Below, one piece after another: positions 39,358-60,201 of a stretch of 64,000 nucleotides of DNA. The translations under genes and the position numbers were made by a program. Origin of the DNA: an uncultured Eubacteriales bacterium (GTDB lineage Bacteria > Bacillota > JAAYKD01); contig CAYRNW010000004.1 of NCBI GenBank assembly GCA_964425745.1, positions 67,833-131,832 of the forward strand, read 5' to 3'. Position 1 is the stretch's first letter; every line of letters begins with the position of its first letter. The notes below the pieces were generated by a model, which did no database searches, was not told the origin of the DNA, and saw only the letters and a list, made by a program, of their open reading frames with translations.

Positions 39358-40083
39358 TTACCTCGAAACAATCTCTTCAATCTTCCCGTCTTTCAGCTTC
39401 ACCACGCGGTCGGCAATCTCTGCCACTTCTGGGTTGTGGGATGCCACAATGACCGTAACCCCTTGTTGGTTCAACTTGCGCATGAGGTCCAGTACCATGG
39501 TGTGGTTGGCACTATCGAGGTTTCCGGTAGGCTCATCTGCCAATAACAACGAGGGCTGATTCATCATAGCTCTGGCGATGGCCACACGCTGTTCTTGCCC
39601 CCCCGATAATTCTCCCGGGAAATGATGCATACGATCTGCCAAATCCACCTGGCGTAGTAACTCCTCTGCACGCTCCTGCACTTCTTTTGGAGGCTTGAGC
39701 TTAGTCACATATTTTGCCGGTTGCATTACATTCTCCAAAGCGGTTTTGTCTTCAAGTAAGTTATAGTCTTGAAAGATGAAGCCGATCTTTTCAGCCCGAA
39801 AAGCAGATAGCTTTTTGTCGTTCGTGCTCGACAAGTAGCCCAAGCTTTCGGTCCCTGCCAGCATTTCATCTTCAAAGCGGTAGCTCCCCTCCTCGGGTTG
39901 TAGAAGCGTCCCCAACAAGTAAAGGAAGGTTGACTTACCGCTACCAGAGGGCCCCCACAGAGTAATCCATTCGCCACGGCGAACTTCTAAATTTGCCTGA
40001 TCGAGTGCACGAATTTCTACCTCGCGCTTATGATAAATCTTACTCATATCTTTGACTGTCAGTAATGGACGATATCCTTCCAT
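39358..40083 (-). CDS. ABC transporter ATP-binding protein (MacB/LolD/FtsE type), copy 1
   Basis: Walker A 'GPSGSGKST', signature 'LSGGQQQR', Walker B 'LLLADEPT'. Confidence 0.9.
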   Translation of the reverse strand: MEGYRPLLTVKDMSKIYHKREVEIRALDQANLEVRRGEWITLWGPSGSGKSTFLYLLGTLLQPEEGSYRFEDEMLAGTESLGYLSSTNDKKLSAFRAEKIGFIFQDYNLLEDKTALENVMQPAKYVTKLKPPKEVQERAEELLRQVDLADRMHHFPGELSGGQEQRVAIARAMMNQPSLLLADEPTGNLDSANHTMVLDLMRKLNQQGVTVIVASHNPEVAEIADRVVKLKDGKIEEIVSR

Positions 40084-40102
40084 GGTTTTCTACTCCTTTC
40101 CC

Positions 40103-41269
40103 TTACCGTTTCAACTCGGCTATAGCTTGTTCAAGTATATTTAACATGACGACATTGTCTTCTTTATTGCCCAGGGTCAAACGGCAAATCCATTCGTTGA
40201 TCATGATTCCTTGTTCATCGAACAAGAAGAAACTATTCAACCTCACATCTCGATCATCTGCTTCTACCAACATGGGGTGAATAGTAGGACCTAGATTGAA
40301 TCTCCGCACCATTTCATAGGATTGATCTTCGTAAATCAGTAAATCTGGATACTTCTGTCGCAAACTCTCTGTTTCTTTCAAATATACATTTATTTGAATC
40401 TCATAGAAATTACGATAATACCACTCGATTTTTGTCTCCGCGTCCTCACGGTGCGCCAGTTCTTGTTGTATGATTGGGTACCTTGTATGCGCATCGGTAG
40501 TTGGTAGAACAACCACCACTTGTATCTGATCTTCTAAAGTATCGAGCAAAGTATATAATTGCAAGTTGGAGTTTCCAATTGTCCAAAGAATCAACAAGGT
40601 GGGTTTGGTTATTTTCAGTACTTCTTTTTCTTGTGTTTCCGACCGAACTAAGCAAAGCTCATGCAAAGGCTTACCGATTTGCACCGGTATTAGTGTTTCT
40701 TCTGCCGTGACTAAATAGGAATAAACATCTTCATACTGCCCAACTGCATAATAGAAATACTGCCTTTGAATCACCCCGTCTTCCAACAACCAAATCATAG
40801 GGTGAAAGTTTTTTATAATGTTCAGATAATCTTGCTTAAATCCCAGTTTCATTAAATCACTCAGCTGCATTTTGACCAGTGCGCAATTGGCAGGTAAATC
40901 CATCACCTCATAGAAAGGCAAACCGCGATTTACAGCCAATCCGGCAATCAATAGCGTAACGGGAGCAACCTCGGCAAGCTGCAATAATTCTTCCATAAAC
41001 AATTCTTCGTATAAGGTATCGCTGCCCGATGTCAAGATAACGAAGCCATCCTGTATTCCTGAAACGGGAAACATATCTCCTGGCTGCGTTTGAATGTATT
41101 CACGTTGTTTTGTTACTTCTTCTTCTGAAAAAGGTTTTAACACACTCCATAGCTTGGGAGCGTCTTGAGAAATAACAGGTTCTTTTTTTTGCGGTTGACA
41201 TCCGCTGAGTAAAACAAGGAGAAACACTAAAAACATAACGCTTATTTTCACCAAGAACGACCGTTTCAT
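40103..41269 (-). CDS. lipoprotein of an uncharacterised family ('family A'), copy 1
   Basis: Lipobox 'LLSGC'. Paralogs at 47731-48900 and 53765-54931, and a distant one at 51505-52578. Confidence 0.55.
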   Translation of the reverse strand: MKRSFLVKISVMFLVFLLVLLSGCQPQKKEPVISQDAPKLWSVLKPFSEEEVTKQREYIQTQPGDMFPVSGIQDGFVILTSGSDTLYEELFMEELLQLAEVAPVTLLIAGLAVNRGLPFYEVMDLPANCALVKMQLSDLMKLGFKQDYLNIIKNFHPMIWLLEDGVIQRQYFYYAVGQYEDVYSYLVTAEETLIPVQIGKPLHELCLVRSETQEKEVLKITKPTLLILWTIGNSNLQLYTLLDTLEDQIQVVVVLPTTDAHTRYPIIQQELAHREDAETKIEWYYRNFYEIQINVYLKETESLRQKYPDLLIYEDQSYEMVRRFNLGPTIHPMLVEADDRDVRLNSFFLFDEQGIMINEWICRLTLGNKEDNVVMLNILEQAIAELKR

Positions 41270-41288
41270 AGGTTCTGACCTCCCTTCC

Positions 41289-43859
41289 TTACAGCAATTC
41301 TCCAGGTTCTTTACGCGAGAACAAAACTGCCGGTAGCCAAGCCGTCAAGATTGCGCTCAGCAAACACAGCAAGAGAGGCCCGAATATTAGTAATGCGACA
41401 TTGGGCGTAAGCCTTAAGTTCTGACCCGATAGATACTGCTGTAAAAACGATATTCCCGTTGCCAATAGCCCAGCTGCAACAAAAGGATAACCGGTTCTTT
41501 TCATAAGTTGAATGACAATTTGTTGAGCGGTAGCACCGATGGTTCTTTGTATACCTGTGTATTTCGAAATTTCTCGCGTCTTGACAATGGTAAAAGCAAA
41601 CAGACCAAAACATGTTTGCAGAATCAGCAGAGCAATCAGGAACCACGAGGTATACATGTAGCTGCGCTGCATATCGAGAGTGCGCTGCAAATCATAAGAC
41701 GGTTCAATTACTTTAATATCCGGTGTTTCCCGCAGCTTCTCGCTGAGTTGTTGATATAATTCTTTTATTCTGGTATAGTCGCTGTTTCTTATGATGATTT
41801 GCGGCGCAACTTTGTTCTGCCAAAAGGTGTCTTTATTTTTTTCATCGGTTGTATAAATACTGAGCAACGGGAAGCTCAACCCTGGCCGCTCCATATAGTC
41901 ACCCAAATCAATGATTCCGACGATTTTTTTAGTTTCTTTCGGACCGTAGCTATAGAATTCTACCTCTTTTCCTACAGCATTTTCCACTGAAGTAAATAGG
42001 ACTTCTGCCAATTCTCTTCCCACCGCTATTTCTTCATATCGCTGCGGCCAACTGCCTAGGCTGACGTCTAACCCTTGGGTTTCGGTATACTTTCCGGCAG
42101 TAACGATAAGGTTAGTTGTATACTGTACTCCATTCACTAGAAAGGAGTATCTTGAATAGGAGCCTTGCCAAGCAATACTTTCTTCTTCCACTCCCATTTC
42201 AACTAGTTTGCCGATATAAGCGCTCGGTAGATGTGCTTCATTGACTTGATGTACACTTTGAATTTGTATCAAGTCAAATTGAGAGGTTATCAGCTTTGTC
42301 TCCAGACGGTCTGTTTCCATGATGGTGGACCAGGTACTTTGCTGTATGGCAAGAACGAGCAAGAAAAAGGTCAGTACACTGAGTTCCCGCCGAAAATCAA
42401 TTTTCCCCCATTGGAATCGTGATTTCCCTTTTAAGGCGTCGATAGGACTCTGCCCTAAGACAAAGAAGGAACAGATTACACTACTGAAAGGGGCAAAGCA
42501 CAAGGTGATGATTAGAAACGGAACGAGCGAACTGATTTGAAAGACATACCGGATGTCCAGAAAATGGTAGCAAATATTTAGCACCAACCACAACCCGGGT
42601 AGGGATATGGAAGCCGCTCCTAACGAAAGGTTCAAGTAGTTCTTAGCATACTCCAATTCGATTTGGTCGGTGCCCGAACCCATAGAACGGCGTATCGCAA
42701 TGGCTTTACGCTCTTGATATAAATGCAACATGAGCAAAGACGTGATCAGGAGCATGGAAATGCCCACCATTTTCATAAACAAATTAATAAGAGGAGCTAA
42801 TTCCGCATACTCCATACCGATTTTGAGCGGGGGGGTCAAATCGACCGGGATAGAATAGACCTCTGCCTGAAAGCGATCTTCGAAGGTATCGAGGACTTTT
42901 CGCAAGGTTAATGAAATGTTTTCTTTCTGATCGATTTTAATCAAGAGGTAGTTGGAAGGTTCCGGGTTAAAAAAAGAATTGGCTTCTTCTTCAAGCTTGC
43001 TGCCTTCCAGGTATAAACCGGAATCACTGGTGTTTCCTAGGTCAGCATTAAGTTCTTCCTGAGTTGCCGCCTTTCTCTCAAGAGGATAATGGAGTTCAGC
43101 CGTCATACGGCTCAAGAAAGCTGTATCATCCCCGTAATCAAGATATACCCTGCGGTCGGTATCACTCGGATAAATCTGAGAACCTGTCCATTGTAAGGAT
43201 GTTAAGATTTTCTGTGGGTAAAGATACTCCAGCGAAGTTAAAAAACTAGGTTTCCAATCGAAAAGATCAATTGGAGCTCCCTCGAAATAAAAACCTGCCG
43301 CATCATAGATGTTCTTCATGGGTAACCCGAATTCCCATTTGTGACTTTCGTTCGCATACGCTCCCAACACCGCCCAATTATGATCCAATTCGTCGGGTAA
43401 GCGATCTGCTTCCGGGGCCAATTGCATGATTCTGAAATAGCTTGGTTCCACAAACAATGTCTGAACAGCGTCATGGAAATAGGACATCGTACCAAGCAGC
43501 GTTTCTGTAGGGCGATTCTCTTCATAATGCGTAAAAATGACGCGATTTTTCGCGACCAAGGATACTTCTTCCACATGTTCAATTTCTTTGATCTGTTTAC
43601 TGTCTGCTGTTGTAAAGTACTCGGATGTAGAAAGTGCTGTATCGTAATCCCAGCCAATAGCATAGATTAAAGTCTGATCTTTTTTCTTTTCTTCATCGAG
43701 TTGAACTTCAATTCCACTGCTTAAGCTGGCTGCAGCCATGACGCAGATCTCGAATAAGAGTATGCTTGTAAACAGAATCACAGAAATCGTCCTAGTCATT
43801 GGTTCCATGGAACGAAAACGCTGGTACAAATTCCTTATGGTTTGGTTTAGTTTACTCAT
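41289..43859 (-). CDS. ABC transporter permease, tandem FtsX-like (MacB-like), copy 1
   Basis: About 857 aa. Start set at MSKLNQT (RBS GAGGTG). It has two 4-TM FtsX blocks, each preceded by a large extracytoplasmic domain. Confidence 0.8.
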   Translation of the reverse strand: MSKLNQTIRNLYQRFRSMEPMTRTISVILFTSILLFEICVMAAASLSSGIEVQLDEEKKKDQTLIYAIGWDYDTALSTSEYFTTADSKQIKEIEHVEEVSLVAKNRVIFTHYEENRPTETLLGTMSYFHDAVQTLFVEPSYFRIMQLAPEADRLPDELDHNWAVLGAYANESHKWEFGLPMKNIYDAAGFYFEGAPIDLFDWKPSFLTSLEYLYPQKILTSLQWTGSQIYPSDTDRRVYLDYGDDTAFLSRMTAELHYPLERKAATQEELNADLGNTSDSGLYLEGSKLEEEANSFFNPEPSNYLLIKIDQKENISLTLRKVLDTFEDRFQAEVYSIPVDLTPPLKIGMEYAELAPLINLFMKMVGISMLLITSLLMLHLYQERKAIAIRRSMGSGTDQIELEYAKNYLNLSLGAASISLPGLWLVLNICYHFLDIRYVFQISSLVPFLIITLCFAPFSSVICSFFVLGQSPIDALKGKSRFQWGKIDFRRELSVLTFFLLVLAIQQSTWSTIMETDRLETKLITSQFDLIQIQSVHQVNEAHLPSAYIGKLVEMGVEEESIAWQGSYSRYSFLVNGVQYTTNLIVTAGKYTETQGLDVSLGSWPQRYEEIAVGRELAEVLFTSVENAVGKEVEFYSYGPKETKKIVGIIDLGDYMERPGLSFPLLSIYTTDEKNKDTFWQNKVAPQIIIRNSDYTRIKELYQQLSEKLRETPDIKVIEPSYDLQRTLDMQRSYMYTSWFLIALLILQTCFGLFAFTIVKTREISKYTGIQRTIGATAQQIVIQLMKRTGYPFVAAGLLATGISFLQQYLSGQNLRLTPNVALLIFGPLLLCLLSAILTAWLPAVLFSRKEPGELL

Positions 43860-43901
43860 CTTACACCTCAATTTAAGACACATTAAAAACATTAATTGGA
43901 T

Positions 43902-44993
43902 TTATTGTTTGCCGAAATATTGCTCAACAAGCAAAAGTGGATCTTGGTAATCTCCTGTTTCTGAAAACGCACTATTTACCAGCATTAAGAAAAAGCGACT
44001 AACAATTTCGTTGTTTTCATTCACGATGATCATACTCGGGTATTGATATAGATTTAGCTTTACGCCTAACTCGTTATAGTCGTCGGTATATACTGCACAA
44101 CTCTCATTGAGTATATTCAGCAATCCTGTAACTCTCTCCTTTTGCATTAGCTGACCAGTCTTAATGCTTTCATATGATTCCTCAGATATTTCAAACTCGC
44201 CATAATAAGCATCCATCTCTTGAAAAGCTTCTAGCATATAAGCCCCATTATTATTAATCACAATAGTTGGTTTTATTGGCCATTCCTGCTTCAGTATCCA
44301 AGACGCAGCATCCATGCAAATTGAACATTCCGGTGAAAGTGTAATTAGGATTTTCTTTCCTTTTTCATTATAAGTAAGCGGTTCACCATTTTCTCTTTTA
44401 AGGTACAATTCCGGGAAAGAACCTCCTAGACCTGCTATTTTTACCGTTGAAAGATAATCACTCAATAAAAGGAAGTCTTTGATTTTTTTCCAATCCTGCA
44501 CACGGAAATTACTGTATTTGTTAACTACGGTTCTGTTTCTAACGCTGTAAAGGACAGGAAGACGACCTAAGGTATACTCTGCTATATCCGTTTCTTTTAA
44601 CAGAATTATTTCACTGCCTTTGGGCAGTGCTTGTGATAGCTGATCATCTCGAGTTTCACCTTCTTTGATGACTGCAATATAGGTAATCGGTTGTGCGTAG
44701 TCTATATTCACAAGATTTAAAACTAAATTGTTAACCAATCCCTCATATCCATCACAAATGAAAACCATATTGTATGTTGTTTCTATTGGGAAAAAATCAT
44801 CTATATCTAAACCAAGATACACTTTTGTAAAGTACATTTCACTGTCATTCTTACTCGTCATTAGCTTATATTCTATTTCGTCATCTTTTTCTCTATTCAT
44901 CAATTCGCTGTTATTGCTGCAGGAAGTTAGAACAAAAAGCAATACTATTGAAAACAGCAACAGGAATGTTTTATCGTTTCGGTGAACTAACAA
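43902..44993 (-). CDS. lipoprotein with C-terminal thioredoxin-like CxxC domain ('family B'), copy 1
   Basis: Lipobox 'LTSC'. 'LTLSPECSICMD...YPSMIIVNENNEIV' follows the thioredoxin beta1-CxxC-alpha1 and cis-Pro pattern. TTG start with RBS AGGAGAGGG. Confidence 0.5.
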   Translation of the reverse strand: MLVHRNDKTFLLLFSIVLLFVLTSCSNNSELMNREKDDEIEYKLMTSKNDSEMYFTKVYLGLDIDDFFPIETTYNMVFICDGYEGLVNNLVLNLVNIDYAQPITYIAVIKEGETRDDQLSQALPKGSEIILLKETDIAEYTLGRLPVLYSVRNRTVVNKYSNFRVQDWKKIKDFLLLSDYLSTVKIAGLGGSFPELYLKRENGEPLTYNEKGKKILITLSPECSICMDAASWILKQEWPIKPTIVINNNGAYMLEAFQEMDAYYGEFEISEESYESIKTGQLMQKERVTGLLNILNESCAVYTDDYNELGVKLNLYQYPSMIIVNENNEIVSRFFLMLVNSAFSETGDYQDPLLLVEQYFGKQ

Positions 44994-45061: not shown

Positions 45062-45355
45062 CTACTTAGTCACAACTAATGGCAAAGCTTTCAAATAGCC
45101 GCATGGCACGGGGTAATATGCACATCTTCTTGAAATCTCGACCTGATTGATGTAATATATTTCCAAATCGGGATTATATGGATCTGAAGCCCCGCACATA
45201 CCGCAAAAAACACAGTAGCATGTAGTTTCACCAGGTACTACTAATTGTGCTGCCATACAATCCATTCCACAAGGATTAGCATTTGCAAATGCAAGAGAAC
45301 TAAGCATAATACTGAAAACAATAGTAAACGAGAGCATCCTAGTCAATTTCGACAT
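45062..45355 (-). CDS. Sec-signal small secreted protein with 8 Cys (about 70 aa mature), paralog 1
   Basis: Start at MSKLTRM (RBS GGAAAGGGGA) and a signal peptide ending AFA/NA. Mature part 'C..C..C.C..CG.C...PY.PDL...Y.N.VE..R.C.Y.PVPCG..K' is shared with 55032-55310. Confidence 0.6.
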   Translation of the reverse strand: MSKLTRMLSFTIVFSIMLSSLAFANANPCGMDCMAAQLVVPGETTCYCVFCGMCGASDPYNPDLEIYYINQVEISRRCAYYPVPCGYLKALPLVVTK

Positions 45356-46597: not shown

Positions 46598-46958
46598 TGT
46601 GGTTACCTCCTTTTCGGAAGTAATCAGCTCCATGGGTAATGCCCTGTTTGTTCGGAATTGTCTCTTGTGTAGTAACCTGAACTTTATCCTGTCCATTTTT
46701 CAAGATTGTCGTAAGGGTTCGAATGCTTGGTGTTTGTGTAAATGCCAAGAGACGTTCGCAAGCTTTCTCCAGTCGCTTCGCTCCATACCGTTCGGAGAGC
46801 TTAATCAAGCTGGCACATGCCTTGAAACCCTGCTCAACTTCTCTCCCCAAAGAAAGGAAATATTGCATAACCGCAGCTGTTTTTGGTCCTACTTCAAGAC
46901 TCCAAGCTGTAAAACTTTCACTGTTGTAGGTTAAAAATTTCTTGTGTTCAGGTGTCAT
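46551..46958 (-). pseudogene. istA: IS21 transposase IstA, C-terminal fragment only
   Basis: About 135 aa in the usual IS21 overlap arrangement with istB. The catalytic N-terminal two-thirds are missing. Confidence 0.55.
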
Positions 46959-52578: not shown

Positions 52579-52645
52579 AAGTAGTTTAATGAATTTTGAC
52601 CTTTTCGTAATCTCACCTCCTGAAGACTTGTTATAATCCGTCTTG

Positions 52646-53764: not shown

Positions 53765-54931
53765 TTATTTCAACTCAGTTATTGCTTGCTCCAAAATAGT
53801 CAGCATTTCATATCTGTCTTCTTGATTCCCCAAAGTCATGCGGCACTGCCAGTCTTTAACCAAGATACTTTTTGCATTGAACAGGTAGAACGAATAAAGC
53901 ATAACTCCACGGTCCTCTCCTTTCATCAACGAGTAATGCAGAATCTGTAAAGAATTCAGCCTACGTATCATTTCGTGATTTTGATCTTCATATATCTTCA
54001 ACTCGGGATATAGTTTCATTATATTGTTGATGTTACTTAGTTCAACTGATGTTTGGTTTTTCATACTTTCAATATATTTCCATTCAATTCTATCTTCAGC
54101 ATCATAAGACGATGCTAAAGCTTCTAAAAGCACAGGATAACGAGTGCGAATATCTGTTGTCTTAAGCACCAGAAATATCTGCACCTTGTTCTGAAAATAG
54201 TCTAAGAAGGTTTGTAGCAATGCATTTGAATTCTCAAATGACCAAAGAATAAGCAGAGTTGGCCGGTCTATTTGAACCAGTTCTCTCTCTTGACCTCGTG
54301 CCTGAACCAAATATAATTTTTGCAAGGGTTGTCCAACTTGAATCGGCGAAATCATGGAATCATCGTTTGTGAAGTGCTCATATATATCTGCATATTGACC
54401 GACTACATAATAAAGATATTGATTTTGGATAATACCCTTCTCTATTTGCCAAACTGCTGGATGATAGTATTTTTCAATTTCAATATAATCTTCATCAAAA
54501 CCCAAACTAATCAAACCATTTCTATCAATCTTAACAATCTCAACATTTGTTGGGAGTTGAATCTTATCAAAGAATGAATTAGAAGCAGGAGATACTAATC
54601 CGGCAATTAAGATAGTTATTGGGGCTAAATCAGATAGTTGCAAAAGTTCACGCATACATAACTCTTCATAGAGATTTGGTCCCCCTGTAGTAAGTATTAT
54701 ATACCCATCTGTTAAGCCCTTAATTGGAAACTCGCTGTTTACTACTGTGTCAATGTATTGATGCTGTTTTACTCTTTCTTCTTGCGATAAAGGTTTTAAG
54801 ACACTCCATAATTTCGGTTCCTCAATGTTCTCCTTAGGTGTCACATTTTTCATTGATTGACACCCACTGAGTAATACTATTAAGAACACTATTAGTGTGA
54901 CGAAAGCATTGTTATAGATGGAGTGCTTCAT
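53765..54931 (-). CDS. family-A lipoprotein, copy 3
   Basis: 'LLSGCQS' lipobox. C-terminus 'RMTLGNQEDRYEMLTILEQAITELK' parallels copies 1 and 2. Confidence 0.55.
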   Translation of the reverse strand: MKHSIYNNAFVTLIVFLIVLLSGCQSMKNVTPKENIEEPKLWSVLKPLSQEERVKQHQYIDTVVNSEFPIKGLTDGYIILTTGGPNLYEELCMRELLQLSDLAPITILIAGLVSPASNSFFDKIQLPTNVEIVKIDRNGLISLGFDEDYIEIEKYYHPAVWQIEKGIIQNQYLYYVVGQYADIYEHFTNDDSMISPIQVGQPLQKLYLVQARGQERELVQIDRPTLLILWSFENSNALLQTFLDYFQNKVQIFLVLKTTDIRTRYPVLLEALASSYDAEDRIEWKYIESMKNQTSVELSNINNIMKLYPELKIYEDQNHEMIRRLNSLQILHYSLMKGEDRGVMLYSFYLFNAKSILVKDWQCRMTLGNQEDRYEMLTILEQAITELK

Positions 54932-55031: not shown

Positions 55032-55310
55032 CTACCTACTCGGCAATTCCATACCTTTTATCCAACCACAAGGTACTGGTCTATATGTGCAGTATCTGTT
55101 TACCTCAACATAGTTTTGATAAACTACAGCTAGATCAGGAGTGTAAGGTTCATATGAGCACCACCCGCAAAGTGTACATACACAATAGGTGTTATCGGCA
55201 TTACAATCTACTACATCAGCAATGGCGCACATTGGATTGGCAAGAGCAAAAGACGAAAATAGTGTGGACAACAATCCAAACAACATTATTATAATCAAAT
55301 ATTTTTTCAT
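55032..55310 (-). CDS. Sec-signal small secreted 8-Cys protein, paralog 2
   Basis: Start at MKKYLII (RBS AAAGGAGA). Signal peptide ends ALA/NP. Cys pattern is conserved with paralog 1. Confidence 0.6.
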   Translation of the reverse strand: MKKYLIIIMLFGLLSTLFSSFALANPMCAIADVVDCNADNTYCVCTLCGWCSYEPYTPDLAVVYQNYVEVNRYCTYRPVPCGWIKGMELPSR

Positions 55311-55490: not shown

Positions 55491-56543
55491 TTAGTTAAAT
55501 AAGCCGAACAATCCAGTAACGAAAAGATAAAACCCCAGGCTCAGTGTAATTGCACGAGCAAAAGTGTTAAGATATTGGTTTTTGAGCTGGCCTTGCACAA
55601 TCAGTGCGTTTTTACCAAAAAACATTAACAGAATAATCAAAACCATGGGTAATGCAAAGGCTGCGTTATATAAAACAAGGCGCCATAAATAACCTGTTGT
55701 ATCTTTCGTAGATATGTAATATATGGTTGGTAGGTAGATTTGACCTGTACAGATAAATTCAAACATTGAACTACATAAGCCGATAATAAACACGGACAGC
55801 AGCCCAATACTTCTTGCTCTCAAATTGCCAATCACTTTACCTAATTTCAGCTTGACTTTATTCCCTTTTCCCTGATTACTTCCAATAGAAGATATCACTA
55901 AGAGTAACCCCATCAAAATATAAATGAATGGTGCTGCAACACGCAGGAAGTCAAATCTCACAACTAATTGTCCTAATCCAATACCCAATAGGAAATAAAC
56001 AGATGTCACTCCGAAAACAAATACGAGCCCACATTGTAATAATCTATCTCTGTCTTTGTTGGCTATAATCGCTAACAATATCAACAACACATTGAGAGTG
56101 CATGGATTTAAGCCATCAGAAAGACCTGCCACAAAAACCCCCCATTCAGTCAAGGAGCTTACTGTTACACTATCTTTTGAGGATCCCCCCGATAGAAATG
56201 CTTTGAGGCTATCTTCATCCGAAAATCCGATTTGAGCATTATCCCCATAAAAGAATGCAGGGACTTGACCAGCCAGCGATGGCGCTTTATCGCAATCAAC
56301 CAATAATTGCATCATGAGAGATAAACTTCCGGGATCTTGAATATTATATTTTTCAACCGCAAGACCGTCTGCTTCGAGCTTTTCAACTATTGGCTCTGCC
56401 TGCTGGCAACTGCTACAGTAGGGTGAATAGAAGAAAAATAGTGTTGTTTCTTCCTTTGCATTACCCTGAGCTTTGCTAAAAATCAGTGGAGAAAAGGTGC
56501 TGCATAAAATCAAGCAAAGAAAAAATACTTTGAACCTTCTCAC
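55491..56543 (-). CDS. thioredoxin-like domain fused to a CcdA/DsbD-family thiol-disulfide membrane transporter
   Basis: N-terminal 'FFFYSPYCSSCQQ' CxxC. Membrane domain carries the CcdA hallmark 'GLNPCTLNVL' and a second Cys ('FICTGQ'). Confidence 0.7.
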   Translation of the reverse strand: MRRFKVFFLCLILCSTFSPLIFSKAQGNAKEETTLFFFYSPYCSSCQQAEPIVEKLEADGLAVEKYNIQDPGSLSLMMQLLVDCDKAPSLAGQVPAFFYGDNAQIGFSDEDSLKAFLSGGSSKDSVTVSSLTEWGVFVAGLSDGLNPCTLNVLLILLAIIANKDRDRLLQCGLVFVFGVTSVYFLLGIGLGQLVVRFDFLRVAAPFIYILMGLLLVISSIGSNQGKGNKVKLKLGKVIGNLRARSIGLLSVFIIGLCSSMFEFICTGQIYLPTIYYISTKDTTGYLWRLVLYNAAFALPMVLIILLMFFGKNALIVQGQLKNQYLNTFARAITLSLGFYLFVTGLFGLFN

Positions 56544-56619
56544 ATTCTTCCCTCCTAAACAGAAGCCAAAATAATTTTAATTCATCAAATAGCATTTGCA
56601 TAAAATCAAATCTACTATA

Positions 56620-56647: not shown

Positions 56648-56714
56648 TAGTAAGATGTTACTAATTGAGTAGTAACATCTTACTATTTCTACACTAAACG
56701 AGTCTAACTTGGGG

Positions 56715-56912
56715 TTACTTCTTCATCTTACCCGCTATGAGCGAGGCCACATATACCACTCCGGCTAAGACAATAAGTGGAATCATGACATAAGCAGAGG
56801 TTACCTTAAAAAACACATTAACAATGAGAATGACCAAAAGGATGACAAGCACCAGTCCTGTTAGTTTTTCCTGCAAGGGCGAGAAACGGTAAGGATGTCT
56901 GGGTTCTGGCAT
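56715..56912 (-). CDS. small 2-TM membrane protein (65 aa)
   Basis: ORF between permease 3 and the trx-ccdA promoter. Supported only by hydrophobicity and position. Confidence 0.3.
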   Translation of the reverse strand: MPEPRHPYRFSPLQEKLTGLVLVILLVILIVNVFFKVTSAYVMIPLIVLAGVVYVASLIAGKMKK

Positions 56913-56931
56913 TGAAAAAACCTCCTTCTTT

Positions 56932-59601
56932 TTACATTAGGTTTGCAGGCGGAATTTTGGCAAAGCGTTGTGCCGGTTGCCAAGCCGCCAAGATACACAA
57001 GAGCATAGATACTACTATGGGGATTAAGGTAACTATATAATCTCTAGGATACACTTGCGAAAGCCCTTGATCTGCAAAAAACACACCAAAGCCGAAAATA
57101 CACCCTAGTAAAGCAGCCGGTAAGAACGGCCAAATCGATTCAATGAAGATAGCCCGGGCAATTTGGGCTTGAGTTGCCCCGAGAGAACGTTGGATCGCTA
57201 CTACACGGGCTAATTCTCTGGTGCGAATCAAGGTAAACGAGAGAACCGCAATCCCGATTTGTAAGACCTCCAACAAGATGAACATCCACACGGTATAAAG
57301 GAAGGTTTTCTGCAATTGGCGAGTTTGTTCTAAGTCATAAAGCTTTTCTTTGATCTTCAACAAGGGAACACTCGACTGATTCAACCAGTTCTGCAAGGCG
57401 GCTCTGGCGTCTTGGATTCGGTTGAAGTCCTCACTGCGAAGAATAATGAGGGGCTTTAGGACCTCCTTCCAGATGCTACTATCGTTTGCTTGGGAACTCA
57501 TAAATACTGTTGCATTGGGGTTGTCTAAATTGGGACGTTCTACATCTTCTTTGGCATCGACTACTCCTACGACTGTATAAGGTGAACCCTGGGGTTGGAA
57601 ACGTAGGGTTTGCCCCAAAGCAAGCTGTGAGGTTCCAAACAATGCTTTGGCTATTTGGTTACCTAATACCACCTCTTGCGGCCTTTGTATCCAATTACCG
57701 TGTAGCAAATTCAAACTTTGAGCGTTCAAAGTATCTCCCTGGCAAAGTGATAGGTATGCTATGTATTTCTCTTGTTCCAGCCACAGACTTGCTTGCGGCA
57801 CGGTTCCCTGCCAAGCCAAACCCTCTACATCGATACCTAAGTTTGCGATGATTTGCAAATATGCCGGAGGTAAGTGGTCTTGACCCGTATTTCTAACGCT
57901 TTCCAGCGTGACCCGGTCGAAACCGGCTTGCCGTATTTGATTGTCTACCACGTTCATATCTTTTAAGGCGGTTAAGCTACTGTAGGTGACCACAGCAATG
58001 ACCACCAAGAAAGTTGCCCAAACCAAGTCTCGGCGGAGATCGAAAATCCACCATTTCATACTCTTATCGCCCGATACTACCGCCATGGGCTCATATTTCA
58101 AAATGAAAAACAGAGGTAAGAAACTGCAAGTGGGACCCAAAAACACGGTGAGGGGGAGCATGGTGACGATGGTGTCTGGAGAAAGATACGAAATAATGCT
58201 GAACTGGCTCTGCACCAGAATTAAGAACATGTAGACTAATATCACCGATAAAACATTCGCAGGCACACTTAAGCGCAGATATTGTAGAAAGTATTCCAAC
58301 TCGATTTCGGCTTCGGTGGAGCCCAGGGAGCGTTTCATGGCGATGTTTTTTCTTTCCTGAAAGCCATGCATGGTGACAAGAGCTAACATGAGTAACAACG
58401 AAACAGCAGCCAGGTTATAACTAACTTTCTTTAAGGGAACAATGGACTCCTCAGTCATAGCAACCACACCGCGAGTGCCGCTATCGATTTGAATCGCTTT
58501 CACTTTATCTCCGTAAAGAGGGCGCAGATACTTCAGAATGGCTTCTACCGTGGTTTCGGCATGCTCCGCCGAGTCGATTCGGACAAATAAGTAGTTATAA
58601 GGTTTCTCGAAACCGTAGCCAATGTCTTTTTGCATACTATAGTCGGGGATATCGTTGTAGATTTCCCACTTTTTGAAGATGTATTCTTGTATGGATTTCG
58701 ATTCGTAGAGACCTTCACCACCTGGCCCAGTCCATGGTTCATAATCCAACAAAGGTTCTGTCCTTTGGCTGTATACTTCTTTGAATTCCTCCCACGTCAC
58801 ATAGACTGTAGGGGCACGCTTGGGCAGGCGGGCAATACGAGCTCCTAGATCTTCATCGCTGCCATAATCCAAATATGCATAATGATCATACTTGGTCAGC
58901 AAATCTTCCTCTTGCCTGTAAACCAGGCTGCCCAACACTGTTTGCGGGTATTGCTCGTTTAAGGGAATGAGTGGATCTGGTTGGAAGTTTTTCCTCTCTT
59001 CTCTAACCTGATCCGGTGTTCCGGAAAAGAAGGCTTGAAAACCATAACTGGCAAAAATTCTTTGAAAGGGTTCGCCAATTTCCCATGCGGTGCGTTGCTC
59101 TAGGGTCACACCTAAAACCGCCCAATCTTTATCGGTAAAAGTAGGTAAACGGCCTTTGTAGGTAGGATATTCGAAAACTTGGAAAAAACTCGGCTCAACA
59201 TAAGCAGCTTCTACCGTAAGCCAACGAGTCTCTGAATCTTCCTCACCAAAGGGGGATAAGTACCCCAATGGGTCCTCGAAAGCTTTCTCCGGAAAATAAG
59301 TGAATTTGGCATCGAGCGAGACCAGCGAAGCTGCTTTGACGTGCGAGATTTTCTCTACAGCTTCCCGGTCTTGGGTAGACATATACTCAATTTGGGGGGC
59401 ATCGTAATCGTAATCCCACGATACCATATAAATAATAGGGTTTTGCTGATCAAGCAAGCGGAATAGCCGCGTCTGCATGCCATCGCGTATAGCCGCGGAA
59501 AGCTGGAAGCAAAAACTAAACAAGAGGATGCTGCAAAAAAGAGCAATTAGAATCAGACGAGAAATAGGTTCCATGCGACGAAATTCCTGAATGCGTTTCA
59601 T
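56932..59601 (-). CDS. ABC transporter permease, tandem FtsX-like, copy 3 (divergent, no adjacent ATPase gene)
   Basis: About 890 aa with the same two-block architecture. ATG at MKRIQEF has RBS GAGGAGTG. The ORF-track start 59610 is a GTG a few codons upstream. Confidence 0.75.
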   Translation of the reverse strand: MKRIQEFRRMEPISRLILIALFCSILLFSFCFQLSAAIRDGMQTRLFRLLDQQNPIIYMVSWDYDYDAPQIEYMSTQDREAVEKISHVKAASLVSLDAKFTYFPEKAFEDPLGYLSPFGEEDSETRWLTVEAAYVEPSFFQVFEYPTYKGRLPTFTDKDWAVLGVTLEQRTAWEIGEPFQRIFASYGFQAFFSGTPDQVREERKNFQPDPLIPLNEQYPQTVLGSLVYRQEEDLLTKYDHYAYLDYGSDEDLGARIARLPKRAPTVYVTWEEFKEVYSQRTEPLLDYEPWTGPGGEGLYESKSIQEYIFKKWEIYNDIPDYSMQKDIGYGFEKPYNYLFVRIDSAEHAETTVEAILKYLRPLYGDKVKAIQIDSGTRGVVAMTEESIVPLKKVSYNLAAVSLLLMLALVTMHGFQERKNIAMKRSLGSTEAEIELEYFLQYLRLSVPANVLSVILVYMFLILVQSQFSIISYLSPDTIVTMLPLTVFLGPTCSFLPLFFILKYEPMAVVSGDKSMKWWIFDLRRDLVWATFLVVIAVVTYSSLTALKDMNVVDNQIRQAGFDRVTLESVRNTGQDHLPPAYLQIIANLGIDVEGLAWQGTVPQASLWLEQEKYIAYLSLCQGDTLNAQSLNLLHGNWIQRPQEVVLGNQIAKALFGTSQLALGQTLRFQPQGSPYTVVGVVDAKEDVERPNLDNPNATVFMSSQANDSSIWKEVLKPLIILRSEDFNRIQDARAALQNWLNQSSVPLLKIKEKLYDLEQTRQLQKTFLYTVWMFILLEVLQIGIAVLSFTLIRTRELARVVAIQRSLGATQAQIARAIFIESIWPFLPAALLGCIFGFGVFFADQGLSQVYPRDYIVTLIPIVVSMLLCILAAWQPAQRFAKIPPANLM

Positions 59602-59880
59602 TCTCCACACTCCTCATTCATGAAGTCTTCTAGAATCGTCGATATTTTCTATGCGATTTCCATTTTGTTTCATGTGCCTCTTTTTGATTATTTTTATCTC
59701 ATTGCATAATTCTGCATAATTTTCAAAACTCCTTCAAATGATTCTTCTTTTTTCATAATTTTATTTCGCACCGGGGTCAGACCCCGGTGCGAAATAAGGT
59801 GGGGTTTTGTGAGTTGGTTACTGAACTCAAAATGTTTATGGTGTATTCTTCATAACGATCAATACGAGGAGGACGATACC

Positions 59881-60201
59881 ATGTTTTCATTTTTGCAAAA
59901 GAGCACCGGCAAGACCATTCGCATGAACGATATTGACCCTTTGGTAGGCAAGGTAGAATTGCTAGACATCCGTGAGCCTTATGAGTACAAGGCCGGAACC
60001 TTAAAGACCGCTAAGAATGTTCCCATGAATGAACTGATGGCGAACCCAGACAAACATATGAAAAAAGGCACCACGTATTATCTATTCTGTCTGTCCGGAT
60101 CGCGGAGTCAGTTTGTATGCCGCAAACTTTCAGCCGAAGGTTATGATGTAATCAACATGCTGGGTGGCATGGGTGTTTACTGTGGAATCCATAAGGTTTA
60201 G
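59881..60201 (+). CDS. single-domain rhodanese (sulfurtransferase)
   Basis: Start at MFSFLQK (RBS GAGGAGGA). Active-site loop 'CLSGSRS'. Confidence 0.7.
   Translation: MFSFLQKSTGKTIRMNDIDPLVGKVELLDIREPYEYKAGTLKTAKNVPMNELMANPDKHMKKGTTYYLFCLSGSRSQFVCRKLSAEGYDVINMLGGMGVYCGIHKV

What the first reader, a model, noticed from the sequence alone, without database searches (positions are those of the whole stretch)
39358..60201. Repeated island pairing 8-Cys secreted proteins with thiol-disulfide enzymes, FtsX/MacB-type ABC transporters and a novel lipoprotein family
One minus-strand gene array of about 21 kb encodes the following. (1) Two paralogous Sec-signal proteins, about 70 aa mature, with 8 conserved Cys. 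(2) A Trx-CcdA fusion, two lipoproteins with a C-terminal thioredoxin-like CxxC domain, and a divergently placed rhodanese. (3) Three tandem-FtsX permeases of about 860-890 aa and two near-identical MacB/LolD ATPases. (4) Four paralogous 'LSGC' lipoproteins of no recognisable family. The gene order partly repeats: peptide, Trx-lipoprotein, permease, family-A lipoprotein, ATPase. No radical-SAM, LanM/LanB, peptidase-C39 or two-component genes are present, so this is not a standard RiPP, lantibiotic or Bce module. The Trx/CcdA genes suggest the secreted Cys-rich proteins are the redox substrates (disulfide isomerisation or reduced thiols for metal or cofactor binding). The ABC modules may handle export, release or immunity. 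I do not recognise this combination as a described system.
Basis: partly seen in the sequence, partly recalled or inferred. Interest (0 to 1): 0.9.

Follow-up and report, generated by a model that had tools for sequence, protein, structure and literature searches.

The report
Cys-rich secreted proteins with redox/ABC island
An uncultured digester Firmicute carries a rare, strain-variable gene island that pairs small secreted proteins with eight cysteines with their own thioredoxin-type redox proteins and MacB-type ABC pumps, a combination matching no curated family or paper I searched, and whose function is still only inferred.

Summary

Three corrections:
- The "novel LSGC lipoproteins" are not an unrelated family. 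They are CxxC-less paralogues of the two CxxC lipoproteins, and both types model as TlpA/ResA-like thioredoxin folds.
- An IS21 remnant separates the two modules.
- The rhodanese is linked only by adjacency in close relatives.

The peptide family is nearly unique: three versions among 1.84 billion representative proteins. The gene set still recurs. A third peptide sits beside a CxxC lipoprotein and a permease in another organism. A distant locus carries Trx-CcdA, a CxxC lipoprotein, an unrelated 6-Cys secreted peptide and a tandem-FtsX permease.

The ABC/lipoprotein core also exists without peptides or Trx genes, and close strains differ by whole-gene deletions.

Best reading (about 0.4): Sec-exported, multi-disulfide effector proteins are matured by a dedicated extracytoplasmic thiol-disulfide relay. 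MacB-type pumps, each with a thioredoxin-fold partner lipoprotein, then release them or protect the producer. No experiment or expression data support this. I rate it a new variant of known kinds, of moderate to high interest.

The parts
56932..59610 (-). Permease 1: a tandem-FtsX (fused MacB-like) permease of 892 aa, with a large extracytoplasmic domain after TM1 and a MacB_PCD domain between the two FtsX blocks.
   Evidence: Pfam FtsX E = 1.5e-17 (two stretches) and MacB_PCD E = 1.9e-15. Weak NCBIfam ADOP match. TM scan.
56715..56912 (-). Small 65-aa single-TM protein that is conserved with the transporter core.
   Evidence: One TM helix. Orthologues are present in L011 and in the distant L018 locus.
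55491..56543 (-). Trx-CcdA-like fusion: signal/anchor, an extracytoplasmic thioredoxin-like domain (CSSC), then 6 TM helices with Cys148 (NPC, TM1) and Cys265 (CTGQ, TM4).
   Evidence: Weak Pfam Thioredoxin hit, E = 0.0026. TM scan and Cys positions. Motifs are invariant in 8 homologues. JGI names the protein CcdA. There is no Pfam DsbD hit and no PDB CcdA hit.
55032..55310 (-). pepA: a 92-aa precursor with a Sec signal (ALA|NP) and a 68-aa mature protein with 8 Cys. The mature protein is acidic (pI 4.4).
   Evidence: Only 2 clusters were found in 1.84e9 representatives.
53765..54931 (-). CxxC-less thioredoxin-fold lipoprotein (LSGC-1), 388 aa.
   Evidence: No Pfam hit. Family alignment. Homologous to the CxxC lipoproteins. 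A single invariant Cys in the family.
52646..53749 (-). CxxC lipoprotein A (CSIC), two-domain and TlpA/ResA-like, 367 aa.
   Evidence: The paralogue B model matches ResA, StoA, CcmG and Etrx2. This gene is precisely absent in strain variant L010.
51505..52578 (-). Divergent CxxC-less lipoprotein (lipobox IIGC), 24% identical to the LSGC type. It lies immediately upstream of permease 2.
   Evidence: Variant L010 shows a fuller signal peptide.
48920..51487 (-). Permease 2: tandem FtsX, 855 aa.
   Evidence: Pfam FtsX E = 7.8e-12 and MacB_PCD E = 5.8e-6.
47731..48900 (-). CxxC-less lipoprotein LSGC-2, 389 aa from the internal ATG.
   Evidence: called as 389 aa in L002 and L004.
46980..47711 (-). 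ABC ATPase 1, of LolD/MacB/FtsE type, 243 aa.
   Evidence: Pfam ABC_tran E = 1.5e-31. NCBIfam LolD 217 bits, below the cut-off.
45824..46958 (-). IS21 remnant: a fragment I take to be the truncated C-terminus of IstA, plus IstB. It separates module 1 from module 2.
   Evidence: IstB_IS21 E = 3.3e-43. The IstA assignment rests on the 135-aa ORF with no Pfam hit and on its position next to IstB; that is inference.
45062..45355 (-). pepB: a 97-aa precursor with a Sec signal (ANA|NP) and a 71-aa mature protein with 8 Cys.
   Evidence: dN/dS of 0.105 against pepC.
43902..44993 (-). CxxC lipoprotein B (CSIC), 363 aa.
   Evidence: AlphaFold2 model with pLDDT 60; the C-terminal domain reaches 70-84. 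Foldseek against PDB gives ResA, StoA, CcmG, Etrx2, TlpA and SdbA at E about 2e-5.
41289..43892 (-). Permease 3: tandem FtsX, 867 aa.
   Evidence: Pfam FtsX E = 6.6e-13. 69% identical to permease 2 overall, with the first extracytoplasmic domain most divergent.
40103..41269 (-). CxxC-less lipoprotein LSGC-3, 388 aa.
39358..40083 (-). ABC ATPase 2, 241 aa.
   Evidence: Pfam ABC_tran E = 7.5e-32. 94% identical to ATPase 1.
59881..60201 (+). Single-domain rhodanese placed divergently. It is a neighbour whose membership in the system is doubtful.
   Evidence: Pfam Rhodanese E = 8.9e-12. Syntenic only in close relatives and absent from L018 and L023.
38494..39246 (-). DUF2812 membrane protein downstream of the last ATPase. 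It is a conserved neighbour in close relatives.
   Evidence: Pfam DUF2812 E = 5.6e-9. Same position in L004 and L011.

Best explanation
The island is a strain-variable locus for making and handling small, disulfide-rich extracellular proteins. It is most likely a competition (bacteriocin-like effector plus self-protection) system.

Proposed steps:
1. pepA and pepB are exported by Sec and cut by signal peptidase I. The signal peptides and AXA sites are visible in the sequence; export and cleavage themselves are inferred.
2. Outside the membrane, their 8 cysteines are handled by a dedicated redox relay. A membrane protein built like CcdA carries a fused extracytoplasmic thioredoxin domain. It passes electrons to or from a cognate two-domain TlpA/ResA-like CxxC lipoprotein encoded beside each peptide. 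That lipoprotein forms or shuffles the four disulfides, or keeps the thiols reduced. The folds, motifs and recurrent linkage are shown; the chemistry and its direction are inferred.
3. Each tandem-FtsX permease works with the shared LolD/MacB-type ATPase and with a CxxC-less thioredoxin-fold lipoprotein encoded directly downstream of it. That lipoprotein has lost the CxxC but keeps one invariant Cys. I propose it binds the folded or folding peptide as an adaptor or trap. The pump would then use MacB-style mechanotransmission to expel the peptide from the membrane surface, giving release, producer immunity or both. This whole step is inferred.
For: - The peptides are real, conserved genes. All 8 Cys are invariant in three versions, and dN/dS is 0.105.
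- The CxxC lipoprotein model matches ResA, StoA, CcmG, Etrx2, TlpA and SdbA. The CSIC motif falls just before helix 224-235 of the model.
- The CxxC-less lipoproteins are homologous to the CxxC type and model as thioredoxin folds. One Cys is invariant in all 14 CxxC-less members and absent from the CxxC type.
- The linkage recurs. pepC sits with a CxxC lipoprotein and a permease. L023, L024 and L056 carry Trx-CcdA, a CxxC lipoprotein (hhalign 96.7%), a different 6-Cys secreted peptide and a permease at 24% identity, E = 1e-22. In L055 an ATPase of this type is followed by Trx-CcdA.
- More distant Trx-CcdA homologues lie beside secreted proteins with 10-15 Cys.
- The peptide, its CxxC lipoprotein and the first extracytoplasmic domain of the permease diverge together. 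The figures are peptide 41-49%, CxxC lipoprotein 25% and permease residues 200-300 at 34-38%. In contrast the TM regions stay 82-96% identical and the ATPases 94%.
- The locus behaves like a competition locus. Near-identical strains differ by whole-gene deletions and cassette changes (L004, L010, L011). An IS21 remnant is present. GC drops to 0.34-0.35 over the pepA cassette. The island is flanked by PDC-S01 defence-candidate ATPases, a DUF6088 gene and, just beyond the window, an AbiEii gene.
- Peptide-free relatives keep the pump and lipoprotein core, as orphan immunity loci do.
- There are precedents from established knowledge and from papers the searches listed but which I did not read. 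EntV and pediocin need thioredoxin-family proteins for their disulfides (PMC6606811, PMC4919988). CcdA-to-Etrx lipoprotein relays exist in streptococci (PMC3914529). The next two are from my own knowledge. MacAB-TolC expels a Sec-exported, disulfide-bonded enterotoxin. The lactococcin 972 cluster pairs a Sec-dependent bacteriocin with a dedicated ABC transporter.
Against: - There are no expression, activity or structural data for the peptides.
- The mature peptides are acidic (pI 4.4-4.6, net charge -2 to -4), unlike most membrane-active bacteriocins.
- No regulator and no classical small immunity gene is present.
- The organism is presumably an anaerobe (inferred from its digester/bioreactor source), so there is no obvious source of oxidising power. 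ResA/CcmG-type proteins fed by CcdA are normally reductants.
- The ABC and lipoprotein core exists without any peptide or Trx genes, so its primary role may be something else.
- Variant L010 keeps pepA but lacks CxxC lipoprotein A.
- The CcdA assignment fails Pfam and PDB sequence tests.
- The CxxC lipoprotein model is of only moderate confidence (pLDDT 60).
Confidence: 0.4

Rival explanations
1. The pump and lipoprotein core is a housekeeping cell-envelope machine, for example one that extracts, positions or activates envelope proteins as FtsEX or LolCDE do. The 8-Cys proteins would then be non-toxic extracellular accessory proteins, such as small binding modules for polysaccharide or cell wall, that this lineage inserted into the operon together with their folding catalysts.
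For: - The core occurs without peptide or Trx genes in L012 and in the only GTDB genome hit, L018, where it sits among housekeeping genes.
- Every permease gene except perm1 is followed directly by a CxxC-less lipoprotein, which suggests a fixed complex.
- The peptides are acidic and rich in aromatic residues.
- There is a weak profile match to the chitin-binding CBM73 module 6z41 (E = 0.012). Three Cys align, as do the W and Y residues that the paper lists as putative binding-surface residues.
Against: - The CBM73 match weakens to E = 0.06 with three sequences and vanishes with a single sequence.
- The peptides, their CxxC lipoproteins and the first extracytoplasmic domain of the permease diverge fast. 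Strains differ in gene content. Neither is typical of housekeeping functions.
- The whole family is confined to a handful of metagenomic lineages.
Confidence: 0.2
2. This is a metal or sulfur handling system. The Trx-CcdA relay would keep the 8 cysteines reduced so that the secreted proteins bind metal ions or sulfur species in the sulfidic digester environment. The ABC pumps and the rhodanese would take part in export or detoxification.
For: - The peptides carry a CxCxxCxxC cluster and 8 invariant Cys.
- ResA/CcmG/TlpA-like proteins fed by CcdA normally act as reductants; this is established knowledge, and the fold matches are.
- A rhodanese lies next to the island.
- TlpA and Sco-type relatives, which serve copper-centre assembly, appear among the structural hits.
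Against: - The peptides contain no His and match no known metal-binding family.
- The rhodanese is cytoplasmic and is not conserved with the system.
- No metal-responsive regulator lies in the island. A Trns_repr_metal gene occurs about 6 kb downstream in L011 only.
- MacB-type pumps are not known metal transporters (my knowledge).
Confidence: 0.12
3. The peptides are secreted signalling proteins (pheromones). Their cognate receptor would be the variable first extracytoplasmic domain of the permease or the lipoprotein.
For: The peptide and the permease extracytoplasmic domain diverge together, as in pheromone-receptor pairs.
Against: - No kinase, response regulator or other transcription factor lies in or beside the island.
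- A 7.7-kDa protein with 8 Cys is unusually large for a Gram-positive pheromone (my knowledge).
Confidence: 0.05
4. There is no functional unit. A transporter operon happened to collect unrelated insertions in a recombination hot spot.
For: An IS21 remnant, whole-gene deletions and chimeric ORFs occur among strains, and GC is low over the pepA cassette.
Against: - The same combination recurs with sequences that have diverged to 16-40% identity and in a different gene order.
- All parts are under purifying selection.
Confidence: 0.08

Closest known systems
CcdA-to-thioredoxin-lipoprotein reducing relays of Firmicutes (CcdA-ResA and CcdA-StoA in Bacillus subtilis; CcdA1/2-Etrx1/2 in Streptococcus pneumoniae) and DsbD-DsbC/CcmG in Proteobacteria
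   Same: - A membrane thiol-disulfide transporter with Cys in TM1 and TM4, plus membrane-anchored extracytoplasmic TlpA/ResA-like CxxC proteins.
- The structural matches are to exactly these proteins.
   Different: - Here the membrane protein carries its own fused N-terminal thioredoxin domain, and it fails the Pfam DsbD models.
- The lipoproteins are two-domain proteins of about 360 aa with no Pfam match.
- The presumed substrates are dedicated 8-Cys secreted proteins, not cytochromes, spore-cortex factors or MsrAB.
- The relay is embedded in an ABC transporter operon.
Sec-dependent or disulfide-dependent bacteriocin loci with a dedicated thioredoxin-family helper (EntV + DsbA, pediocin + PedC, sublancin + BdbA/BdbB)
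   Same: A secreted peptide whose activity needs disulfides is encoded next to, or depends on, a thioredoxin-fold oxidoreductase. These loci vary between strains.
   Different: - The peptides here are an unrelated sequence family. They have four potential disulfides and are acidic.
- There is no C39 ABC exporter, glycosyltransferase or small immunity protein.
- The helpers here look like the reductant/isomerase type (ResA/CcmG-like) with a CcdA-like partner.
Lactococcin 972-type clusters (a Sec-dependent bacteriocin followed by a dedicated ABC permease and ATPase)
   Same: A Sec-signal bacteriocin of about 70 aa mature length, followed by a non-canonical ABC permease and a LolD/MacB-like ATPase thought to give immunity. 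The ATPase here scores 189 bits on the TIGR03608 model.
   Different: - The score is below that family's cut-off of 254.85.
- The peptides do not match the Lactococcin_972 model, and the permeases are tandem FtsX proteins rather than the 7-TM family.
- Lactococcin 972 has no cysteines and no redox genes (my knowledge).
MacB-family type VII ABC transporters (MacAB-TolC, LolCDE, FtsEX, YknXYZ)
   Same: - FtsX transmembrane domains with large extracytoplasmic domains, including MacB_PCD, and a LolD/MacB/FtsE-type ATPase.
- Substrates are handled outside the membrane. This includes a Sec-exported disulfide-bonded enterotoxin for MacAB (my knowledge).
   Different: - Here two FtsX halves are fused in one polypeptide of 855-892 aa.
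- There is no membrane-fusion protein. The partner encoded with each permease is a thioredoxin-fold lipoprotein.
LanI lipoprotein plus LanFEG ABC immunity of lantibiotic producers
   Same: The proposed logic is the same: a peptide-binding lipoprotein and an ABC pump together protect the producer.
   Different: There is no sequence or fold relationship, there are no lanthipeptide genes, and the role here is inferred only.

Membership tests
TlpA/ResA/CcmG-like extracytoplasmic thiol-disulfide oxidoreductases (CxxC lipoproteins 52646-53749 and 43902-44993) | Thioredoxin fold with the N-terminal beta-hairpin and central insert typical of TlpA-like proteins | tested here: met
   The AlphaFold2 model of 43902-44993 has a C-terminal domain with pLDDT 70-84. 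Foldseek against PDB returns ResA, StoA, CcmG, Etrx2, TlpA and SdbA at E about 2e-5, with target TM-scores of about 0.6.
TlpA/ResA/CcmG-like extracytoplasmic thiol-disulfide oxidoreductases (CxxC lipoproteins 52646-53749 and 43902-44993) | CxxC motif at the start of the first helix of the thioredoxin fold | tested here: met
   CSIC is invariant in 4 sequences. It lies just before helix 224-235 of the model.
TlpA/ResA/CcmG-like extracytoplasmic thiol-disulfide oxidoreductases (CxxC lipoproteins 52646-53749 and 43902-44993) | Match to curated sequence models (Pfam AhpC-TSA, Redoxin, Thioredoxin_8; NCBIfam) | tested here: not met
   No Pfam or NCBIfam family matches at E <= 0.1. The best PDB profile hit is only E = 0.03 to a thioredoxin-like protein.
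TlpA/ResA/CcmG-like extracytoplasmic thiol-disulfide oxidoreductases (CxxC lipoproteins 52646-53749 and 43902-44993) | Redox activity and its direction | not testable with these tools
   This needs redox-potential measurements and insulin-reduction or isomerase assays.
Thioredoxin-fold superfamily (CxxC-less 'LSGC' lipoproteins) | Thioredoxin-like fold | tested here: met
Thioredoxin-fold superfamily (CxxC-less 'LSGC' lipoproteins) | Catalytic CxxC or a peroxidatic Cys at the canonical position | tested here: not met
   The canonical position reads W-S/T-x-x-N (LILWSFENS) in all 14 members. A different single Cys, WxC[R/E] at position 362, is invariant instead.
CcdA/DsbD family of membrane thiol-disulfide transporters (55491-56543) | Six (or eight) TM helices with one conserved Cys in TM1 and one in TM4 | tested here: met
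   The hydropathy scan shows 6 TM helices after the thioredoxin domain, with Cys148 in the first and Cys265 in the fourth. Both Cys are invariant in 8 homologues.
CcdA/DsbD family of membrane thiol-disulfide transporters (55491-56543) | Match to Pfam DsbD (PF02683) or DsbD_2, or to a solved CcdA/DsbD | tested here: not met
   No such Pfam hit for any of 8 members, even at E <= 10. One member hits SfLAP at E = 3e-4. The PDB profile search has no CcdA/DsbD-named entry among its 42 matches at E <= 10; all but a few are thioredoxin-, PDI- or glutaredoxin-type. The only positive evidence is JGI's own name, 'CcdA'.
MacB / type VII ABC transporters | FtsX transmembrane domain with a MacB-like periplasmic core domain, plus a LolD/MacB-type ATPase | tested here: met
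   FtsX appears twice in all three permeases. MacB_PCD is clear in perm1, borderline in perm2 and not detected in perm3. The ATPase scores 217 bits on LolD and 197 bits on MacB, both below the equivalog cut-offs.
MacB / type VII ABC transporters | Membrane-fusion (MacA/YknX-type) adaptor partner | tested here: not met
   No HlyD or MFP domain is found in any island protein.
Lactococcin 972 bacteriocin cluster | Peptide matching Lactococcin_972, a 7-TM immunity permease, and a TIGR03608 ATPase above cut-off | tested here: not met
   The peptides have no Pfam or NCBIfam hit. The permeases are FtsX-type. The ATPase scores 188.7 bits against a cut-off of 254.85.
BceAB-type peptide-resistance modules | A 10-TM permease with a single large extracellular domain and an adjacent two-component system | tested here: not met
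   The permeases have two FtsX blocks, each preceded by an extracytoplasmic domain. No histidine kinase or response regulator lies in or beside the island.
RiPP systems (lanthipeptide, sactipeptide/ranthipeptide, glycocin) | A modifying enzyme (LanB/C/M, radical SAM or glycosyltransferase) and a leader-peptide protease or C39 ABC exporter | tested here: not met
   None is found among the island proteins or their neighbours. The peptides carry ordinary Sec signals.
Cytochrome c maturation System II (CcdA-ResA-ResBC) | ResB/ResC (CcsBA) haem-handling proteins and CxxCH motifs in the substrates | tested here: not met
   There are no ResB/ResC domains. The peptides contain no His.
CBM73/CBM5 carbohydrate-binding modules (for the 8-Cys proteins) | Significant sequence or fold similarity to a CBM73/CBM5 module | tested here: inconclusive
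   The two-sequence profile hits 6z41 at E = 0.012, with three Cys and the W and Y residues that the paper lists as putative binding-surface residues aligned. E rises to 0.06 with three sequences, and the single sequence gives no hit.

The most novel reading that the evidence does not exclude
This would be a previously undescribed class of Gram-positive protein-toxin system. Sec-exported, four-disulfide effector proteins would be folded by a private DsbD/DsbC-like relay made of a Trx-CcdA fusion and a two-domain CxxC lipoprotein. A catalytically altered paralogue of that same oxidoreductase (CxxC lost, one new invariant Cys) would serve as the substrate adaptor of a fused MacB-type pump. The pump would release the effector and protect the producer. 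Peptide, oxidoreductase and the pump's extracytoplasmic domain would co-evolve as exchangeable cassettes.
Probability: 0.25. Interest if true: 0.75.

Novelty: new variant of a known kind. Interest (0 to 1): 0.58.

Why it matters
If the model holds, it shows how an anaerobic Gram-positive bacterium equips individual secreted proteins with a private disulfide-handling pathway. It would also show a thioredoxin-fold protein recruited, after losing its CxxC, as the partner of a MacB-type mechanotransmission pump. No lipoprotein partner of this kind turned up for that transporter class in my searches.

It would add a new family of multi-disulfide secreted proteins with possible antimicrobial or binding activity. 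It would also give a tractable example of peptide, oxidoreductase and pump cassettes co-diversifying.

The limits are real. The family is confined to a few uncultured digester lineages, and every functional statement is inferred.

Tried and rejected
- **Known-family assignment.** I ran Pfam, NCBIfam and PADLOC on the island proteins I submitted: two of the three permeases in NCBIfam and PADLOC combined, and not all lipoprotein paralogues. The peptides and lipoproteins gave nothing. The ATPases and permeases gave only generic ABC and FtsX hits.
- **Word-indexed homologue search with pepA.** It found only pepA itself. An exhaustive profile search of 1.84e9 representatives found only pepA and pepC. 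The peptide is therefore not a domain of any larger known protein.
- **PDB sequence searches.** With the peptide profiles I found only the weak CBM73 match, which did not strengthen when I added the third sequence. I kept it as a lead, not a finding.
- **CcdA confirmation.** Neither a PDB profile search nor Pfam at E <= 10 on 8 homologues gave a DsbD/CcdA hit.
- **GTDB genome scan with the lipoprotein profile.** It returned one locus only, a 'Bacillota bacterium' MAG without peptides.
- **Metagenome scan with the Trx-CcdA profile.** It returned 27 loci. In my automated screen none carried an FtsX permease or a lipoprotein of this family. Manual reading of the four closest (L028-L031) found secreted Cys-rich proteins beside three of them (L028-L030).
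- **Promoter and terminator scan.** Counts did not exceed shuffled expectation, and no terminator follows either peptide gene.
- **Rfam scan.** Nothing in the island.
- **Extra small Cys-rich ORFs in the intergenic gaps.** None found.
- **Recent duplication of module 1 to give module 2.** Rejected: the modules are only 75% identical in DNA, and the ATPases have dS of about 1.
- **Structure searches.** The AFDB Foldseek library was unavailable. Both structure-prediction jobs went on the lipoproteins, so I could not model the peptide.
- **Literature.** Five searches found no description of this combination.

Full report
**1. What is in the sequence**

The divergent rhodanese follows at 59809-60201. 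Reading in the direction of transcription, the genes are:

| Coordinates | Gene |
|---|---|
| 56932-59610 | permease 1 (892 aa) |
| 56715-56912 | 65-aa single-TM protein |
| 55491-56543 | Trx-CcdA-like protein |
| 55032-55310 | pepA |
| 53765-54931 | LSGC lipoprotein |
| 52646-53749 | CxxC lipoprotein A |
| 51505-52578 | divergent lipoprotein |
| 48920-51487 | permease 2 |
| 47731-48900 | LSGC lipoprotein |
| 46980-47711 | ATPase 1 |
| 45824-46958 | IS21 remnant |
| 45062-45355 | pepB |
| 43902-44993 | CxxC lipoprotein B |
| 41289-43892 | permease 3 |
| 40103-41269 | LSGC lipoprotein |
| 39358-40083 | ATPase 2 |
| 38494-39246 | DUF2812 membrane protein |

Pfam finds FtsX twice in each permease. 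MacB_PCD is clear in permease 1 and borderline in permease 2. Pfam also finds ABC_tran in both ATPases, Rhodanese, IstB_IS21, and only a weak Thioredoxin signal (E = 0.0026) in the Trx-CcdA-like protein. The peptides and all six lipoproteins match no Pfam or NCBIfam family.

No radical-SAM, Lan, C39 or two-component genes occur in or next to the island.

**2. The 8-Cys proteins are real but almost unique**

- pepA and pepB are 41% identical (E = 2e-19).
- Both have typical Sec signals with AXA cleavage sites.
- The mature proteins are 68 and 71 aa. They are acidic (pI 4.4-4.6), carry 8-9 aromatic residues and have 8 aligned Cys, including a CxCxxCxxC cluster.
- A word-indexed search of 5.8 billion proteins found only pepA itself.
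- An exhaustive profile search of 1.84 billion cluster representatives found two hits. One was pepA. The other was a third version, pepC (P0061), which is 67% identical to pepB and has all 8 Cys conserved.
- Mature pepB against pepC gives dN/dS of 0.105 with saturated dS. These are protein-coding genes under purifying selection.
- The only hint of a known fold is a weak profile match to the chitin-binding CBM73 module 6z41 (E = 0.012). Three Cys align, as do the W and Y residues that the paper lists as putative binding-surface residues.
- That match weakens to E = 0.06 with the three-sequence profile and disappears with pepA alone. I treat it as a lead only.

**3. The six lipoproteins are one thioredoxin-fold family**

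- All six lipoproteins align over their full length. The CSIC of the two CxxC proteins falls opposite 'LILWSxENS' in the others.
- Profile-profile comparison of the CxxC-less group with the CxxC group gives 94% probability and E = 1.3e-7 over 297 columns.
- An AlphaFold2 model of CxxC lipoprotein B has overall pLDDT 60, with 70-84 in the C-terminal domain. It matches ResA, StoA, CcmG, Etrx2, TlpA and SdbA by Foldseek at E about 2e-5.

It is, however, a CxxC-less paralogue of the Trx lipoproteins rather than an unrelated family.

The CxxC-less members are not simply cysteine-free. One Cys (WxC[R/E], position 362) is invariant in all 14 of them and absent from the CxxC type. In the model it lies at the end of the strand before the last helix. 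By analogy with thioredoxin, that region borders the substrate groove. This placement is inference; I did not check it on coordinates.

**4. The Trx-CcdA-like protein**

- It has a signal/anchor, a CSSC thioredoxin-like region and six TM helices. Cys148 (NPC) lies in the first helix and Cys265 (CTGQ) in the fourth. Both motifs are invariant in eight homologues.
- This is the CcdA architecture, and JGI names the protein CcdA.
- However, no Pfam DsbD model and no solved CcdA or DsbD is hit, even with a profile.
- I therefore call it CcdA-like in architecture, with family membership unconfirmed.

**5. Recurrence elsewhere**

The window is identical to a 117-kb JGI metagenome contig. The wider protein family appears in ENA, Logan and JGI samples, and one source labels a member 'bioreactor metagenome'.

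Close strains differ by whole genes:
- L004 has only module 1.
- L010 lacks exactly CxxC lipoprotein A and has a different permease after permease 2.
- L011 has a deletion that fuses the Trx domain to the CxxC lipoprotein. It removes the CcdA-like membrane part, pepA and one LSGC gene.

The third peptide, pepC, lies between a permease and a CxxC lipoprotein (LSPDCSIC) that is followed by another permease.

The Trx-CcdA protein has 23 homologue clusters:
- The closest (50% identity) directly follows an ATPase of this transporter type.
- The 39-40% clade (L023, L024, L056) shows Trx-CcdA followed by a CxxC lipoprotein. That lipoprotein is homologous to the window's at 96.7% probability, E = 3e-10. 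In L023 and L024 an unrelated 87-aa secreted 6-Cys peptide follows, and in L023 a tandem-FtsX permease that is 24% identical to permease 1 at E = 1e-22 comes next. The L024 contig ends inside the next, unscored ORF, and L056 ends inside the lipoprotein gene.
- The 34-37% clade lies next to secreted proteins of 230-270 aa with 10-15 Cys.
- In my automated screen of the more distant homologues found in a metagenome scan, none carried an FtsX permease or a lipoprotein of this family.

Conversely, the pump and lipoprotein core occurs without any peptide or Trx gene. That core comprises two permeases, each followed by a CxxC-less lipoprotein, plus one ATPase; L018 also has the small TM protein. It is seen in L012 and in the single GTDB hit, a 2.9-Mb 'Bacillota bacterium' MAG.

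The lipoprotein family has only 10 clusters in 5.8 billion proteins.

**6. Patterns that bear on mechanism**

- The two modules are old duplicates: 75% DNA identity, and ATPases 94% identical in protein with dS about 1.
- Divergence is uneven. The ATPases are 94% identical and the permease TM regions 82-96%. The LSGC lipoproteins are 48-66% identical and the peptides 41-49%. Permease residues 200-300, in the first extracytoplasmic domain, are 34-38% identical. The CxxC lipoproteins are only 25% identical.
- The parts predicted to be outside the cell and to touch the peptide are thus the fastest evolving.
- GC falls to 0.34-0.35 across the pepA cassette, against about 0.42-0.44 around it.
- The island is flanked on both sides by DUF4143 ATPases that match the PADLOC defence candidate PDC-S01. 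A DUF6088 gene lies on one side and, just beyond the window, an AbiEii gene.

**7. Interpretation**

The steps I consider shown:
- Sec-type signals on three conserved 8-Cys proteins.
- A thioredoxin fold with CxxC in the adjacent lipoproteins.
- A CcdA-like membrane protein with a fused Trx domain.
- MacB-type pumps, each paired with a CxxC-less thioredoxin-fold lipoprotein.
- Recurrent linkage of these parts across diverged lineages.

The steps I infer:
- The Trx-CcdA protein and the CxxC lipoprotein act on the peptide cysteines. With ResA/CcmG-like folds and a CcdA-like partner, isomerisation or reduction is more likely than de novo oxidation.
- The CxxC-less lipoprotein binds the peptide and hands it to the pump.
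- The pump releases the peptide or protects the producer.

A bacteriocin-like competition role fits several observations:
- Gene content varies between strains.
- Peptide, CxxC lipoprotein and pump domain diverge as cassettes.
- The island sits in a defence-rich neighbourhood.
- Pump-only loci resemble orphan immunity.

It has precedents in EntV/DsbA, pediocin/PedC, lactococcin 972 with its ABC transporter, and MacAB export of a disulfide-bonded enterotoxin. The first two come from papers the searches listed but which I did not read (PMC6606811, PMC4919988, with PMC3914529 for the streptococcal relays). The last two are from my own knowledge.

Several points weigh against it:
- The peptides are acidic.
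- No regulator and no classical immunity gene is present.
- The habitat is presumably anaerobic.
- The core exists without peptides.
- One strain keeps pepA without its CxxC lipoprotein.

I put this model at about 0.4. The rivals are:
- A housekeeping envelope machine with non-toxic accessory proteins: 0.2.
- Metal or sulfur handling: 0.12.
- Signalling: 0.05.
- No functional unit: 0.08.

**8. Novelty and verdict**

Every domain belongs to a known superfamily: thioredoxin fold, CcdA-like membrane protein, MacB-type ABC. The logic resembles known redox relays and bacteriocin loci, so this is not categorically new.

Four things did not turn up in any curated library or paper I searched:
- The peptide family itself.
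- The two-domain lipoprotein family in its CxxC and single-Cys forms.
- The pairing of thioredoxin-fold lipoproteins with fused MacB-type permeases.
- The assembly of all of these with a Trx-CcdA fusion.

I rate it a new variant of a known kind, with interest of about 0.58. It is a real, rare and mechanistically suggestive system, but it is confined to a few uncultured lineages and has no functional data.

Noticed in passing
window 37074-38375 (-) and 60395-61582 (+): Two AAA_14/DUF4143 ATPases bracket the island. Both match the PADLOC phage-defence candidate PDC-S01 very strongly (E = 3e-169 and 6e-161).
   Followed up: partly
window 62734-63372 (+), and beyond the window end: A DUF6088 protein lies here. 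In the identical contig L001 it is followed by an AbiEii-domain gene, so the pair looks like an AbiE-type toxin-antitoxin next to the island.
   Followed up: no
window 45824-46958 (-): An IS21 remnant. IstB is intact, but the ORF I take to be IstA is reduced to a 135-aa C-terminal fragment that ends 21 nt from the stop of ATPase 1. This suggests the second module arrived or was rearranged by an IS-associated event.
   Followed up: partly
window 59758-59800: A perfect 20-bp stem-loop lies between the divergent starts of permease 1 and the rhodanese. On the plus strand a T-rich tail follows it, just before the rhodanese ORF. Its function is unknown.
   Followed up: no
L011 4849-6255: In a close relative, a deletion fuses the N-terminal Trx domain of the Trx-CcdA protein in frame to the CxxC lipoprotein. 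It removes the membrane domain, pepA and one LSGC gene.
   Followed up: yes
P0007 (ENA contig of 1277 nt): This protein variant begins with the translation of the region upstream of pepA in the window and continues as pepB. In some strain, therefore, a pepB-type peptide occupies the pepA slot, which looks like cassette exchange inside the signal peptide.
   Followed up: partly
L029 2747-5157 and L030 7894-8981: Next to distant Trx-CcdA homologues lie secreted 260-272-aa proteins with 10 Cys. Each is followed by a membrane protein of about 100 aa, and the pair is duplicated in tandem in L029. Neither protein has a Pfam match.
   Followed up: partly
L020 6377-7069 (also L019, L021, L027): A 230-aa secreted protein with 15 Cys, including a very Cys-dense C-terminal third, lies immediately upstream of a 37%-identical Trx-CcdA homologue and downstream of the ATP synthase operon.
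   Followed up: partly
window 15276-28776 (-): A Pel-like exopolysaccharide cluster (PelG, a DUF3492-type glycosyltransferase, DUF2194, an epimerase) sits beside two tandem CotH kinase-family genes.
   Followed up: no
window 5617-5881 (-), 3696-3848 (+): A T-box leader (103 bits) lies upstream of the gene at 4310-5530. Two tRNA genes lie nearby.
   Followed up: no
L012 14586-15680 and L018 15067-16152: In both peptide-free loci, the lipoprotein after the second permease is split into 110-aa and roughly 240-aa ORFs at the same place. L018 also has an LSGC gene split into 106 and 275 aa. These may be conserved pseudogenes, or programmed or sequencing frameshifts.
   Followed up: no
window 52579-52645 and L010 2922-4025: In the window, the lipoprotein at 51505-52578 starts with a short signal peptide that lacks a charged N-region. 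In strain L010, which lacks the upstream CxxC lipoprotein gene, the same gene has a full 'MKRLRLTILLLL...' signal peptide.
   Followed up: partly
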